DNA of 64,000 bases from assembly GCA_964229255.1 (NCBI GenBank), contig CAXRCX010000011.1:141546-205545 (forward strand), written 5' to 3'. Below the pieces are notes generated by a model. The model was not told the origin of the DNA. It made no database searches and saw only the letters and a program-made list of their open reading frames with translations. Below are positions 2,330 to 18,158 of this stretch, one piece after another. A program made the translations under genes and the position numbers. How positions within the stretch are numbered: position 1 is the stretch's first letter; each line of letters begins with the position of its first letter. This DNA is from Porticoccaceae bacterium. GTDB lineage: Bacteria > Pseudomonadota > Gammaproteobacteria > Pseudomonadales > Porticoccaceae.

Positions 2330-3280
<951 letters not shown>

Positions 3281-3967
3281 ATGCAATTAGCAGTATTAGA
3301 TCCAATCAATCCAGTCTTTCCGGACCCTAATACTGCATTAGATGATCCAGATGGGCTACTGGCTGTAGGTGGCAATTTACAGCCAGATACCCTCCTCTCT
3401 GCATACTATAATGGGATTTTCCCTTGGTATAATAAAGACGATCCTATCCTTTGGTGGTCCCCCAGTACACGCTGTGTGATTAACCCGCTCGACCTTCATA
3501 TTTCTAAAAGCTTACAAAAATTATTGCGCCAACAAAGATTCACTATTTCTTTTGATCAAGCATTTGAGCAAGTAATAAACGCCTGTGCTCAACGAGACTC
3601 CAAGACTGATACTTGGATAAATAGCGATATGATTTCAGCTTACATCGCTTTAAAAAAATTGGGTGTAGCACACTCAGTTGAAGTTTGGCAGGGCTCTAGG
3701 CTGGTTGGTGGCGCCTACGGTGTGGCGATTGGTGCGGTATTTTGTGGCGAATCTATGTTTAGCAAAGAATCCAACGCCTCAAAAGTTGCACTTGTGCACC
3801 TATCGCAATATTTATCAGGCTTAGGGTTCCAGTTAATTGATTGTCAGCTTGCTTCTAGTCATCTTTTAACTATGGGCGCGAAATCATTGAAAAGACCTAA
3901 ATTTTTGCAGATTTTGCAAAAATTACGAAACATTAATACTGATTTTTCTCCAAGTAAATCACCTTAA
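3281..3967 (+). CDS. aat: Leucyl/phenylalanyl-tRNA-protein transferase
   Basis: DGLLAVGG, GIFPW, LWWSP, AHSVEVW, FCGESMFS, ASKVAL motifs. Confidence 0.97.
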   Translation: MQLAVLDPINPVFPDPNTALDDPDGLLAVGGNLQPDTLLSAYYNGIFPWYNKDDPILWWSPSTRCVINPLDLHISKSLQKLLRQQRFTISFDQAFEQVINACAQRDSKTDTWINSDMISAYIALKKLGVAHSVEVWQGSRLVGGAYGVAIGAVFCGESMFSKESNASKVALVHLSQYLSGLGFQLIDCQLASSHLLTMGAKSLKRPKFLQILQKLRNINTDFSPSKSP

Positions 3968-16342: not shown

Positions 16343-16469
16343 GCCAGTAAATCCTCTGTTAGTGATTGTGCTATTTTTTGAGACTATAGCAAATTTAAAG
16401 TGGTAAATTTATCCCTCTCAACAAAATAATAAAATTAGCCTATTTCTGGGCAGATTAATTTAATAAAGT

Positions 16470-16478
16470 TGGTATAAT
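16470..16478 (+). promoter_or_regulatory. Extended -10 promoter element upstream of pyrD-pyrK fusion
   Basis: TGG-TATAAT (TGn plus perfect -10), 45 nt upstream of the TTG start; no clear -35. Confidence 0.4.
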
Positions 16479-16523: not shown

Positions 16524-18158
16524 TTGAATACAGAATTTCTCGGTAAAAACATTTCTGGCTTGTTTACAATTCCATCGGGCATTGTGACAACGGCAACTTC
16601 AATTATCCAAGCGACATTTGATGATATTCCGCAAATTGGCGTAATCACCACTAAAAGTGTCGGACTTGAATCGCGCGCGGGTAACCGTGAACCGGTTTAT
16701 AGTCAGTATGCCCCCGGCTGTTTCGTCAATGCCGTTGGCCTGACTAACCCTGGCGCTCGTGTTGCAGTAGAGTTAATGGCTGAACTAAGGGTACCTGAGG
16801 ATCGCTTTTTATTGACATCTATCTTTGGTGGCAGTGTTGAGGAATTTGTCGAAGTAGCGAAAATTATGGCTCCAGTTTCTGATGGCCTAGAGTTAAACTT
16901 ATCCTGTCCCCACGCAACAGGTTACGGTATGGCCATGGGTCAAGACCCTGCCCTAGTAAAAGAGATAACAGCGGCAGTCAAAGCGGCGGTAGATATTCCT
17001 GTGGTACCTAAGTTGACCCCAAACACGCCAAATATTGCGGAGATTGCGCTCGCGGCTGTTGAGGGCGGTGCGGATGCTATTTGCGCCATCAATACCCTTG
17101 GTCCCGGCTATACCTCTGCTTATGGTCATCCAGTTTTAAGCAATGGTGCGGGCGGTATGTCCGGTAAAGCGGTTTTGCCCATTGCCCTCAAATGTATTCG
17201 TGAAATACGCGCTGTTTGCGACTTACCAATTATTGGCTGCGGCGGTATCAGTAGCGCTGCAGATGTTCGCGAAACTATGGATGCTGGCGCTGATATTGTC
17301 GGTGTAGGTTCGGCCCTCACTGGTTTAACCACGGCTGAAATGGCGGATTATTTTAATCAGCTTGAATCTGATATCTGCTTTGCTACAAATAAAGCCGAAA
17401 ACCATATTCGCTACGATATTGATATGAACTTTGAACCGGTTGTACTGGTGAAAAATGAGCGTATTTGCGAGGATATCTGCGTACTTACCTTTGACCGTAA
17501 AATTAATATCCAAGCCGGTGAATTTGTCTTTCTCTGGGTTCCGGGTGTGGGTGAAAAACCATTTTCTGCCCTTTCCGATGACCCCTTCCAACTAGCGGTG
17601 ATTGATGTGGGTATCTTTACCCATGCGCTTATGGATCTCGAAGTGGGTACTGAAGTCTATGTCAGAGGCCCCCATGGTATTGCTGTACAACCCCATGAAG
17701 GTGCGAAAATTATGGCAGTCGCCGGTGGTACTGGTTTAGCCGCCGTCTATCAACTGGCAAGAGACTTTGGCAACGCTGAGATCTTTACAGGAGCTCGAAC
17801 TGCAGAGCGTCATTATTACCTTGATGAATGTAAAAAAATTGCTGATGTTCATATAGCCACAGACGATGGCAGCCTTGGTTTTAAAGGCTTCGTAACAGAG
17901 ATGCTTCGCGCACGATTGCAAGAAATGTCAAATTCAGAACTTGAAAATATTATGTTCTATAACTGTGGTCCCGCACCTATGGTGCATGCTGCTGCGGCCG
18001 TTCAACGTGAATTCTGTGGCGATCATCAAATTCATAGCGCCATAGATTACCTAACTAAATGTGGTGTTGGCATCTGTGGTGCCTGCGCTACCCCTGAAGG
18101 AAAACGCATCTGCGTGGATGGGCCCTTTATACAGGGTGATCCTGCAGCTAAAAGCTAG
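16524..18158 (+). CDS. Fused class-1B dihydroorotate dehydrogenase (PyrD) and electron-transfer subunit (PyrK)
   Basis: N-terminal ~290 aa: ITTKS, NAVGLTNPG, ELNLSCPH (catalytic Cys), KLTPN, INT, GGMSG, GCGGI. C-terminal ~240 aa: RGPHG, VAGGTG, YNCGPAPM, KCGVGICGAC...RICVDGP (2Fe-2S). One uninterrupted frame. Confidence 0.88.
   Translation: MNTEFLGKNISGLFTIPSGIVTTATSIIQATFDDIPQIGVITTKSVGLESRAGNREPVYSQYAPGCFVNAVGLTNPGARVAVELMAELRVPEDRFLLTSIFGGSVEEFVEVAKIMAPVSDGLELNLSCPHATGYGMAMGQDPALVKEITAAVKAAVDIPVVPKLTPNTPNIAEIALAAVEGGADAICAINTLGPGYTSAYGHPVLSNGAGGMSGKAVLPIALKCIREIRAVCDLPIIGCGGISSAADVRETMDAGADIVGVGSALTGLTTAEMADYFNQLESDICFATNKAENHIRYDIDMNFEPVVLVKNERICEDICVLTFDRKINIQAGEFVFLWVPGVGEKPFSALSDDPFQLAVIDVGIFTHALMDLEVGTEVYVRGPHGIAVQPHEGAKIMAVAGGTGLAAVYQLARDFGNAEIFTGARTAERHYYLDECKKIADVHIATDDGSLGFKGFVTEMLRARLQEMSNSELENIMFYNCGPAPMVHAAAAVQREFCGDHQIHSAIDYLTKCGVGICGACATPEGKRICVDGPFIQGDPAAKS

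What the first reader, a model, noticed from the sequence alone, without database searches (positions are those of the whole stretch)
16524..18158. Single-chain class-1B PyrD-PyrK dihydroorotate dehydrogenase in a Gammaproteobacterium
Seen: one 544-aa ORF joining a class-1 DHODH barrel (catalytic Cys in ELNLSCPH) to a PyrK-like FAD/NAD module with CGVGICGAC...C 2Fe-2S ligands. Known: Gammaproteobacteria typically use membrane-bound, quinone-linked class-2 PyrD, and class 1B is usually a two-gene NAD+-dependent system in Firmicutes and archaea. Inference: a horizontally acquired, soluble NAD+-linked enzyme that uncouples pyrimidine synthesis from respiration, or a reverse or catabolic pyrimidine reductase. 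It stands alone with its own extended -10 promoter and no neighbouring pyr genes. It has His (SCPH) where class 1B usually has Asn.
Basis: partly seen in the sequence, partly recalled or inferred. Interest (0 to 1): 0.66.

Follow-up and report, generated by a model that had tools for sequence, protein, structure and literature searches.

The report
One-piece NAD-type dihydroorotate dehydrogenase replacing pyrD
This marine SAR92 bacterium makes its only dihydroorotate dehydrogenase, an essential step in building pyrimidines, as one fused soluble iron-sulfur flavoprotein instead of the usual membrane enzyme; the type is uncharacterised but common in databases.

Summary
The 544-aa ORF at 16524-18158 (+) is real. 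It joins a class-1B-type PyrD barrel (catalytic Cys128 in ELNLSCPH) to a complete PyrK-type FAD/NAD/[2Fe-2S] module.

It is not an extra enzyme. It is the only DHO_dh-family gene in this 1.5-Mb SAR92 (Porticoccaceae) genome. pyrB, pyrC, pyrE and pyrF are present, and dihydropyrimidinase is absent.

- **One enzyme per genome.** Across 121 Porticoccaceae and 81 Halieaceae genomes, almost every genome has one DHODH: this fusion, class-2 pyrD or, in some Halieaceae, a third ~310-aa type.
- **Same slot.** One SAR92 species carries class-2 pyrD in the same purB-cupin-ggt-[X]-fadB slot and orientation.
- **Link to dihydroorotase.** Distant relatives are fused to PyrC.
- **Distribution.** None of the 399 other Gammaproteobacteria sampled has the fusion. 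The marine gammaproteobacterial copies form one clade nested among DPANN archaea and candidate phyla, which points to an old horizontal acquisition.
- **The His.** SCPH is a family-wide signature (85 of 89 sequences). It matches dihydropyrimidine dehydrogenase, but it switches with Asn inside the family.

Most likely mechanism: DHO -> FMN -> 2Fe-2S -> FAD -> NAD(P)+. This is a new variant of a known kind, untested biochemically and often misnamed tRNA-dihydrouridine synthase. Interest is moderate.

The parts
16470..16478 (+). -10 promoter box TGGTATAAT, 45 nt upstream of the start codon
   Evidence: Read directly from the sequence. GGTATAAT or AGTATAAT is conserved at the same distance in most SAR92 relatives and in two Halieaceae. 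The TG extension is seen in this genome and one relative. The consensus scan did not pair it with a -35 box.
16524..18158 (+). Complete gene for the single-chain PyrD-PyrK dihydroorotate dehydrogenase (544 aa, TTG start, TAG stop)
   Evidence: It is the only PF01180 gene in the genome. The AlphaFold2 model has pLDDT 90.4 and pTM 0.89.
16524..17327 (+). PyrD-type FMN TIM-barrel domain (about residues 1-268). Holds Lys44, the Asn69 loop NAVGLTNPG, Lys163, Asn190, GGMSG and IGCGGI.
   Evidence: PF01180 at residues 2-266, 185 bits. Alignment to L. lactis DHODB (5ue9/1ep1). Invariant columns in the family alignments. Foldseek top hits are 5ksw and 5ue9.
16890..16913 (+). Active-site loop ELNLSCPH (residues 123-130), with catalytic base Cys128 and His130 in place of the usual Asn
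   Evidence: C128 is invariant and H130 is at least 90% conserved in the family. His is present in 85 of 89 sequences.
17328..17423 (+). Helical linker between the two halves (about residues 269-300)
   Evidence: The AlphaFold2 model has helices at 270-286 and 290-294 with pLDDT about 90-97. No Pfam domain covers this stretch.
17424..18035 (+). PyrK-type FAD-binding beta-barrel (GEKPFS, residues 343-348) and NAD(P)-binding domain (AGGTGLA 400-406, NCGPAPM 480-486)
   Evidence: NF000796 (PyrK) at residues 313-539, 174 bits. PF00175 at 399-490. Alignments to T. maritima NfnA (4ylf) and L. lactis PyrK (1ep1_B).
18036..18143 (+). C-terminal [2Fe-2S] domain with ligands Cys513, Cys518, Cys521 and Cys530 (nt 18060-18113)
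   Evidence: PF10418 at residues 512-539. All four Cys are invariant. They align with the four cluster Cys of L. lactis PyrK.

Best explanation
The gene encodes the cell's sole, housekeeping dihydroorotate dehydrogenase, the fourth step of de novo UMP synthesis. It is a soluble single-chain version of the class-1B enzyme.

Proposed mechanism:
1. Dihydroorotate binds over FMN in the N-terminal TIM barrel. Cys128 abstracts the C5 proton and a hydride passes to FMN.
2. Electrons then pass one at a time through the C-terminal [2Fe-2S] cluster (Cys513/518/521/530) to FAD in the PyrK-type module.
3. FAD passes them on to NAD+ (NADP+ is not excluded).

The covalent link replaces the PyrD-PyrK subunit interface, so the active form is probably a homodimer equivalent to the PyrD2PyrK2 tetramer.

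An ancestor of marine Porticoccaceae and Halieaceae acquired the gene horizontally from a pool now seen mainly in DPANN archaea and candidate phyla. It displaced the membrane-bound, quinone-linked class-2 PyrD. Pyrimidine synthesis in these bacteria therefore no longer depends on the quinone pool.

Shown here: the domain content, the conserved residues, the gene's uniqueness in the genome, the complementary distribution, the same-slot swap, the PyrC fusions and the phylogeny. Inferred: the catalytic activity, the electron path, the acceptor and the oligomeric state.
For: 1. **Anatomy.**
 - DHO_dh plus PyrK-type domains are present.
 - Lys44, Asn69, Asn125, Cys128, Lys163, Asn190 and the four cluster Cys are invariant or at least 90% conserved across 54 and 64 diverse homologues.
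 - The carboxylate-binding loop is the DHOD type, NAVGLTNPG.
 - The model is confident (pLDDT 90.4, pTM 0.89), and its best structural match is L. lactis DHODB.
2. **Pathway gap.** The genome has pyrB (310 bits), pyrC (467), pyrE (189) and pyrF (199), all above their curated cut-offs. It has only one PF01180 gene, which is this one.
3. **Complementary distribution.**
 - Among 24 same-genus genomes, 22 have the fusion and no class-2 pyrD. Two have class-2 pyrD and no fusion.
 - Of 121 Porticoccaceae genomes, 110 have a match and 109 of those have exactly one type.
 - 15 fusion carriers, including five cultured Halieaceae and SAR92 H231, lack class-2 pyrD.
 - In 81 Halieaceae genomes, about 57 have the fusion only, 17 have another single DHODH, and one has both types.
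4. **Same-slot swap.** In SAR92 genome G018 the order is purB-cupin-ggt-[class-2 pyrD, NISSPN]-fadB. The flanks are 76-92% identical to the window's, and the gene has the same orientation as the fusion.
5. **Rosetta stones.** P0123 (968 aa) is PyrC (TIGR00857, 366 bits against a cut-off of 279) plus PyrD plus PyrK, 54% identical to the query. P0125 (881 aa) is a PyrC-like domain plus PyrD (SCPH) plus PyrK. They sit in separate clades.
6. **Selection.** The gene is more conserved (81-97%) than its neighbours ggt and fadB (54-84%) across the genus.
Against: - No biochemical data exist for any member of this fused family. None was found in the paper library.
- One of the four orotate-contacting Asn residues is His130, as in dihydropyrimidine dehydrogenase.
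- All NCBIfam PyrD and PyrK equivalog scores fall below their curated cut-offs: 232 against 269, and 174 against 224.
- The PyrK half scores higher against NfnA (74 bits) than against L. lactis PyrK (47 bits) in the PDB search, so the acceptor is uncertain.
- No pyr gene is adjacent in SAR92 or Halieaceae.
- The genome is 94.65% complete, although closed relatives show the same pattern.
Confidence: 0.85

Rival explanations
1. It is a dihydroorotate dehydrogenase, but the PyrK-type module does not deliver electrons to NAD+. The acceptor would be NADP+, a ferredoxin-type partner or O2. Alternatively the enzyme is poised to run in reverse, and the DPD-like His130 changes the kinetics relative to classical class 1B.
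For: - The PyrK half is closer to NfnA (74.5 bits) than to L. lactis PyrK (46.9 bits).
- PyrK equivalog scores are below cut-off.
- His130 is a near-universal family signature shared with DPD.
- The family is a separate clade that lacks a curated model.
Against: - The best NCBIfam match of the C-terminal half is still the PyrK equivalog NF000796 (174 bits), against 83 bits for the NfnA-like subfamily.
- The first cluster ligand is Cys as in PyrK. NfnA has no Cys at the aligned position.
- The GGTG and CGP nucleotide-binding motifs are intact.
- Sequence alone cannot decide cofactor specificity.
Confidence: 0.1
2. It is a dihydropyrimidine-dehydrogenase-like uracil/thymine reductase, or another enoate-type reductase, for catabolism. 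Orotate would then be made by some unrecognised route.
For: - The ELNLSCPH loop is identical to that of pig DPD.
- DPD chains are the second-best structural matches.
- PreA gives 118 bits.
Against: - The genome has no dihydropyrimidinase (tblastn).
- The PreA score is far below its cut-off of 335, and there is no 4Fe-4S ferredoxin domain.
- The substrate loop is DHOD-type NAVGLTNPG, not the DPD-type NIELIS.
- The gene excludes class-2 pyrD genome by genome and shares its slot.
- Relatives are fused to dihydroorotase. One of these fusions has Asn, so His and Asn interchange within the family.
Confidence: 0.03
3. It is an accessory, oxygen-independent isoenzyme working beside a class-2 PyrD that is simply missing from this draft assembly.
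For: The assembly is 94.65% complete and lies in 17 contigs. Some bacteria, such as Lactococcus, do carry two DHODHs (established knowledge).
Against: - Single-contig and high-completeness SAR92 genomes (G024, G097, G125 and others) also have only the fusion.
- Only 1 of 110 Porticoccaceae genomes with a match has two DHODH genes, and both are class-2 type. Only 1 of 76 Halieaceae genomes has both types, with the second on a ~1-kb contig.
Confidence: 0.02

Closest known systems
Lactococcus lactis dihydroorotate dehydrogenase B (PyrDb + PyrK heterotetramer; PDB 1EP1/1EP2/1EP3, 5UE9, 5KSW)
   Same: - The FMN barrel has the same Cys base in an N-x-S-C-P loop and the NA[VI]GLxNPG carboxylate loop.
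- Lys44, Lys163 and Asn190 have equivalents in DHODB.
- The PyrK-type FAD/NAD module is the same, with four Cys ligands for one [2Fe-2S] cluster.
- It is the best sequence match (138 bits) and the best fold match.
   Different: - It is one polypeptide in PyrD-then-PyrK order, instead of two genes in pyrK-pyrD order.
- His130 replaces the Asn after Cys-Pro.
- Identity is only about 34% in the barrel, and the PyrK half is weakly similar (47 bits).
- Scores are below the NCBIfam equivalog cut-offs.
- It occurs in aerobic marine Gammaproteobacteria and DPANN archaea rather than Firmicutes.
Class-2 quinone-dependent PyrD (E. coli and Pseudomonas type)
   Same: Same pathway step. The two occupy the same chromosomal slot in sister SAR92 species and replace each other genome by genome.
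   Different: - Class 2 has a Ser base (NISSPN) and an N-terminal quinone/membrane domain. It has no Fe-S or FAD module.
- The window protein scores only 52-54 bits on TIGR01036, against a cut-off of 200.
Dihydropyrimidine dehydrogenase (pig DPD 1GT8/1H7W; bacterial PreA/PreT)
   Same: The active-site loop ELNLSCPH is identical, including the His. It is the second-best fold match.
   Different: - DPD and PreA carry 4Fe-4S ferredoxin domains and a glutamate-synthase-type partner.
- The substrate loop differs (NIELIS against NAVGLTNPG).
- PreA scores 118 bits against a cut-off of 335.
- The downstream catabolic enzyme dihydropyrimidinase is absent from the genome.
Reverse-order PyrK-PyrD single-chain fusions (for example P0244, P0246, P0259 and P0263 from the representative search)
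   Same: They also contain both class-1B subunits in a single chain.
   Different: The domain order is opposite, the loop is the canonical SCPN, and PF01180 scores much higher (278 bits). They are an independent fusion of classical class 1B, not the same family.

Membership tests
Class 1B dihydroorotate dehydrogenase (PyrD/PyrK) | FMN-binding DHO_dh TIM barrel | tested here: met
   PF01180 at residues 2-266, 185 bits against a cut-off of 27. Foldseek top hits are DHODB chains.
Class 1B dihydroorotate dehydrogenase (PyrD/PyrK) | Cysteine catalytic base in the N-x-S-C-P active-site loop | tested here: met
   Cys128 aligns with the DHODB loop Cys. It is invariant in 54 and 64 homologues.
Class 1B dihydroorotate dehydrogenase (PyrD/PyrK) | All four conserved orotate-binding Asn residues (Asn67, Asn127, Asn132 and Asn193 in L. 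lactis DHODA numbering; the numbering is from memory and PMC12060061) | tested here: not met
   Asn69, Asn125 and Asn190 are present. The fourth position is His130. His occurs in 85 of 89 family members, and Asn in 3.
Class 1B dihydroorotate dehydrogenase (PyrD/PyrK) | PyrK-type electron-transfer module: FAD barrel, NAD-binding fold and a [2Fe-2S] cluster bound by four Cys | tested here: met
   PF00175, PF10418 and NF000796 match. The four Cys align with the L. lactis PyrK ligands.
Class 1B dihydroorotate dehydrogenase (PyrD/PyrK) | Two separate subunits encoded by adjacent pyrK and pyrD genes (heterotetramer) | tested here: not met
   There is one uninterrupted 544-aa ORF in PyrD-then-PyrK order.
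Class 1B dihydroorotate dehydrogenase (PyrD/PyrK) | Score above the curated NCBIfam equivalog cut-offs (PRK07259 for PyrD, PRK00054.1-1 for PyrK) | tested here: not met
   232.7 against 269, and 173.8 against 224.
Class 1B dihydroorotate dehydrogenase (PyrD/PyrK) | Dihydroorotate:NAD+ oxidoreductase activity | not testable with these tools
   Genomic inference only: it is the sole DHODH candidate beside pyrB, pyrC, pyrE and pyrF, it swaps slots with class-2 pyrD, and relatives are fused to PyrC.
Class 2 (quinone) dihydroorotate dehydrogenase | Serine base and N-terminal quinone/membrane domain; TIGR01036 above cut-off | tested here: not met
   The base is Cys, not Ser. The barrel starts at residue 2. 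TIGR01036 gives 52-54 bits against a cut-off of 200.
Dihydropyrimidine dehydrogenase / PreA | 4Fe-4S ferredoxin domain, a PreT-type partner and a DPD-type pyrimidine loop; NF006183 above cut-off | tested here: not met
   No 4Fe-4S domain is found in Pfam. NF006183 gives 118 bits against 335. The loop is NAVGLTNPG rather than NIELIS. Only the SCPH motif is shared.
tRNA-dihydrouridine synthase (the name NCBI gives many members) | Full-length match to the Dus family PF01207 | tested here: not met
   PF01207 matches only residues 98-164 (profile positions 58-129 of 311) at 37.9 bits. This is a partial TIM-barrel cross-hit lying under the much stronger DHO_dh match.

The most novel reading that the evidence does not exclude
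The PyrD-then-PyrK, SCPH-bearing single-chain enzymes would be a distinct and so far unnamed type of DHODH. On this reading the DPD-like His gives the active-site loop different chemistry or a different acceptor preference. The type has moved between DPANN archaea, candidate bacterial phyla and marine photoheterotrophic Gammaproteobacteria (SAR92, OM60/NOR5). In those bacteria it was selected because it frees pyrimidine synthesis from the redox state of the quinone pool, for example under light-driven over-reduction or low oxygen on particles. Engineers attempted the same swap in Pseudomonas putida with L. lactis pyrK-pyrDB (PMC6805499).
Probability: 0.2. Interest if true: 0.6.

Novelty: new variant of a known kind. 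Interest (0 to 1): 0.45.

Why it matters
SAR92 and the OM60/NOR5 (Halieaceae) group are abundant coastal bacterioplankton.

- **Physiology.** Their essential DHODH step would run on a soluble Fe-S flavoprotein that bypasses the quinone pool. That changes how their pyrimidine synthesis, iron demand and oxygen or redox dependence should be modelled.
- **Annotation.** The family has thousands of database members and no curated model. NCBI often names its members 'tRNA-dihydrouridine synthase' or 'DUF561 protein'. Metabolic reconstructions may therefore score these organisms, and many DPANN archaea, as lacking DHODH.
- **Enzymology.** A natural single-chain class-1B enzyme would be a convenient object for studying FMN to 2Fe-2S to FAD electron transfer. 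It would also show what the DPD-type His does.
- **Evolution.** The same-slot exchange with class-2 pyrD is a clean natural example of one enzyme type displacing another.

Tried and rejected
- **Gene neighbourhood.** No pyr genes lie next to the fusion in SAR92. In Halieaceae and Porticoccus the neighbours I judged by eye look like SelO, NhaA, an amidohydrolase and MiaE; I did not check these by a family search. Context gave no functional link, apart from the same-slot swap.
- **Promoter scan.** The consensus scan did not report the -10 box as a full promoter. I read it directly and compared it across relatives instead.
- **Search for PyrC with a type-I domain.** tblastn with the type-I PyrC domain of P0123 found nothing in the genome. 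The genome's PyrC is type II, found with TIGR00856. The empty result still argues against a hydantoinase-type amidohydrolase, and TIGR02033 confirmed this.
- **Wrong-strand error.** In one search I translated the class-2 pyrD of G018 on the wrong strand, so the 'pyrD2_G018' hits of that call are meaningless. redid this with proper ORFs.
- **Literature.** Searches for a characterised natural PyrD-PyrK fusion, for SAR92 pyrimidine metabolism and for the DPD His found nothing relevant.
- **Model geometry.** The coordinates of the structure model were not available in the Python box. I could not measure the distance between the cluster and FMN.
- **Recent transfer.** Rejected, because GC3 (0.383) is close to that of the neighbours (0.39-0.47).
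Full report
**Observation.** The window carries an uninterrupted 544-codon ORF at 16524-18158 on the + strand, with a TTG start and a TAG stop.
- Pfam places a DHO_dh barrel at residues 2-266 (2e-54), an NAD_binding_1 fold at 399-490 and the DHODB_Fe-S_bind domain at 512-539.
- NCBIfam's best matches are class-1B PyrD (PRK07259, 232.7 bits) for the first half and the PyrK equivalog NF000796 (173.8 bits) for residues 313-539. Both fall below their curated cut-offs of 269 and 224.
ELNLSCPH is residues 123-130 (nt 16890-16913). CGVGICGACATPEGKRIC holds Cys513, Cys518, Cys521 and Cys530.
- TGGTATAAT lies at 16470-16478. The TATAAT hexamer is conserved across most SAR92 relatives and two Halieaceae. 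The TG that makes it an 'extended -10' occurs here and in one other relative, and most others have CG. The TTG start codon is conserved.

**Organism.** Close homologues (79-97% identity) come from records titled Porticoccaceae, SAR92 clade or HTCC2207. The window lies in a 1.5-Mb, 17-contig genome that is 94.65% complete.

**It is the only DHODH in the genome.**
- A whole-genome search with PF01180 finds one gene, this one.
- The rest of the de novo pathway is present above curated cut-offs: pyrB at 310 bits, type-II pyrC at 467, pyrE at 189 and pyrF at 199.
- A dihydropyrimidinase model finds nothing. tblastn with a type-I cyclic amidohydrolase domain also finds nothing.
- The pathway has one gap, and this gene is the only candidate to fill it.

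**Complementary distribution.**
- Among 24 other genomes of the same genus, 22 carry the fusion and lack class-2 pyrD. Two (G007 and G018) carry class-2 pyrD at 438-444 bits on TIGR01036 and lack the fusion. All sampled genomes of other families in the order have class-2 pyrD and no fusion.
- Among 121 Porticoccaceae genomes from 20 genera, 110 have a DHO_dh match. 109 of these have exactly one gene, and the remaining genome has two class-2 copies. The gene is either the class-2 type (216-295 bits, ORF about 335-400 aa) or the fusion (177-204 bits, ORF of 550 aa or more). The fusion occupies the window's genus, most of a second genus and all of a third.
- Fifteen fusion carriers reached through named records have no class-2 pyrD. 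They include the isolates Sediminihaliea albiluteola, Pseudohalioglobus lutimaris, P. sediminis, Parahaliea aestuarii and Parahalioglobus pacificus, and SAR92 H231.
- Among 81 Halieaceae genomes, about 57 have only the fusion and 17 have another single DHODH. Only one has both types, with the second on a contig of about 1 kb.
- Among 400 Gammaproteobacteria drawn evenly from 321 genera, only the window's own genome has the fusion.

**Same-slot swap.**
- The window reads purB(+) cupin(+) ggt(-) fusion(+) fadB(-), and this order is conserved through the genus. The fusion is more conserved (81-97%) than ggt and fadB (54-84%).
- In the same-genus genome G018 the flanks are 76-92% identical in protein sequence. 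The slot between ggt and fadB holds a 339-aa class-2 pyrD with the Ser-type loop NISSPN, in the same orientation as the fusion.
- Class-2 pyrD genes of other Porticoccaceae genera lie elsewhere. The G018 and G007 proteins are 65% identical to each other but only 50-56% identical to the family's other class-2 enzymes.
- The direction of this particular exchange is not settled.
- Two enzyme types alternating in one slot between closely related species is the nearest thing to a natural complementation test.

**Links to dihydroorotase.**
- The exhaustive representative search found 455 clusters at E below 1e-30. More than 100 clusters (at 50% identity) are full-length fusions in PyrD-then-PyrK order, 525-600 aa long and 31-62% identical to the query.
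- P0123 (968 aa, 54% identical to the query) has an N-terminal dihydroorotase. TIGR00857 gives 366 bits against a cut-off of 279, and the best dihydroorotase model gives 472 bits against 231 for dihydropyrimidinase.
- P0125 (881 aa) has a dihydroorotase-like N-terminus followed by an SCPH barrel and PyrK.
- On the tree these two sit in different clades, so PyrC was fused to this enzyme at least twice.

**The His.**
- L. lactis DHODB reads ELNISCPN and pig DPD reads ELNLSCPH. The window therefore has the DPD-type residue.
- The neighbouring substrate loop is the DHOD type: NAVGLTNPG, against NAIGLQNPG in DHODB and NIELIS in DPD.
- The His is not a peculiarity of this gene. It is present in 85 of 89 family members. 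Three have Asn, including the PyrC-fused P0123 and its sister P0391, and one has Thr. This requires at least three changes on the tree.
- Reverse-order PyrK-PyrD fusions keep the canonical SCPN.
- His and Asn are therefore interchangeable within a family that is tied to dihydroorotase. The His marks the clade rather than a change of substrate.

**Structure and mechanism.**
- AlphaFold2 run on a 64-sequence alignment gives pLDDT 90.4 and pTM 0.89. The model has a barrel, a helical linker (270-294), a beta-barrel and a Rossmann-type fold.
- Foldseek ranks L. lactis DHODB chains first and pig DPD next.
- Lys44, Asn69, Asn125, Cys128, Lys163, Asn190, the GG(M/L)SG and GGI phosphate-binding motifs, GEKPFS, GGTG, CGP and the four Cys are invariant or nearly so.
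- The four Cys align with the cluster ligands of L. lactis PyrK. NfnA has no Cys at the position aligned with the first ligand.
- The inferred path is dihydroorotate to FMN (Cys128 as base), then [2Fe-2S], then FAD, then NAD+. The acceptor is the least certain step, because the C-terminal half scores higher against NfnA than against lactococcal PyrK.

**Origin.**
- A maximum-likelihood tree of 89 sequences puts all 26 gammaproteobacterial sequences in one clade (SH-aLRT 100).
- That clade is nested in a 49-sequence clade (SH-aLRT 100) with sequences from Diapherotrites, Nanoarchaeota, Woesearchaeota, Nanobdellota, candidate division WS5, 'Ca. Vecturithrix' and Desulfobacterales at 51-60% identity.
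- One more distant member sits on a contig with archaeal markers (Sec61-beta, RFC).
- The GC3 of the gene (0.383) is close to that of its neighbours (0.39-0.47).
- This fits one old horizontal acquisition in marine Porticoccaceae and Halieaceae, followed by mostly vertical descent and occasional re-replacement.

**Comparison with the known.**
- The closest characterised enzyme is L. lactis DHODB, a two-gene heterotetramer.
- The window protein works like it in every feature that can be read. It fails three membership features: separate subunits, the fourth Asn, and the curated equivalog scores.
- It is not class 2, DPD/PreA or a Dus enzyme. PF01207 matches only residues 98-164.
- I found no paper describing a natural PyrD-PyrK fusion of this type.
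- A relevant precedent is the engineering of Pseudomonas putida with L. lactis pyrK-pyrDB to free orotate synthesis from the quinone and O2 dependence of class-2 PyrD (PMC6805499). These marine bacteria appear to have made the same swap naturally.
- NCBI names many members 'tRNA-dihydrouridine synthase' or 'DUF561 domain-containing protein'. These names are misleading.

**Earlier notes of this scan.**
- After I had reached this reading, a look-up showed that the same fusion was flagged in at least 12 other windows.
- One follow-up (e1-3946874) had concluded that it replaces class-2 pyrD and overwrites its locus.
- That note prompted the same-slot test in SAR92, which came out positive.

**Verdict.**
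- The gene is most likely (about 0.85) the housekeeping, quinone-independent DHODH of SAR92.
- It belongs to a large, uncharacterised single-chain SCPH family of class-1B-like enzymes.
- It is a new variant of a known kind, and its interest is moderate (0.45).
- It matters mainly for annotation, for marine microbial physiology and as an enzymological model.

Noticed in passing
window 18155-18158: The stop codon of the fusion (+, TAG at 18156-18158) and that of the convergent fadB-like gene (-, ORF ends at 18155) overlap within the palindrome CTAG. No terminator-like hairpin was found between or after them.
   Followed up: no
window 16441-16478 and the same region in L017-L040: A motif GCAGATTAAT lies about 18 nt upstream of the conserved GGTATAAT box and is conserved across most SAR92 relatives, although it does not resemble a TTGACA -35 box. 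It may be a regulator site or an unusual -35 element. A TT(T/C)GAGC motif just before the TTG start is also conserved.
   Followed up: partly
L102 (G018:C52) 2424-3443: One SAR92 species has a class-2 pyrD (NISSPN) in the slot that holds the fusion elsewhere in the genus. Its protein and that of G007 are 65% identical to each other but only 50-56% identical to other Porticoccaceae class-2 PyrDs, which suggests they too were imported.
   Followed up: partly
Halieaceae genomes G572, G575, G583, G586, G590, G594, G600, G628, G636 and others: About 13 of 81 Halieaceae genomes have a third kind of single DHODH. Its ORF is about 307-330 aa (two open frames read longer), and it matches PF01180 almost end to end at 238-252 bits. 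It is neither the fusion nor the 338-353-aa class-2 form. It could be class 1A-like or a stand-alone class 1B.
   Followed up: no
L097 728-4357 and 6001-8907: The contig that carries the PyrC-PyrD-PyrK triple fusion also encodes a 1209-aa protein. That protein combines adenylosuccinate lyase (Lyase_1, ASL_C), adenylosuccinate synthetase and a HAD hydrolase. The organism appears to have an unusual number of biosynthetic gene fusions.
   Followed up: no
P0013, P0032, P0039, P0272, P0302, P0339, P0352, P0374, P0391: NCBI records name these fused DHODH homologues 'tRNA-dihydrouridine synthase' or 'DUF561 domain-containing protein'. This looks like a systematic misannotation caused by partial TIM-barrel cross-hits and the lack of a curated model for the family.
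   Followed up: partly
L089 (JBLGAR010000118.1, labelled Cryomorphaceae): A contig labelled Cryomorphaceae (Bacteroidota) carries a fusion 76% identical to the query, and the genome's only PF01180 gene is that fusion. The bin is probably mislabelled or contaminated with Halieaceae DNA.
   Followed up: no
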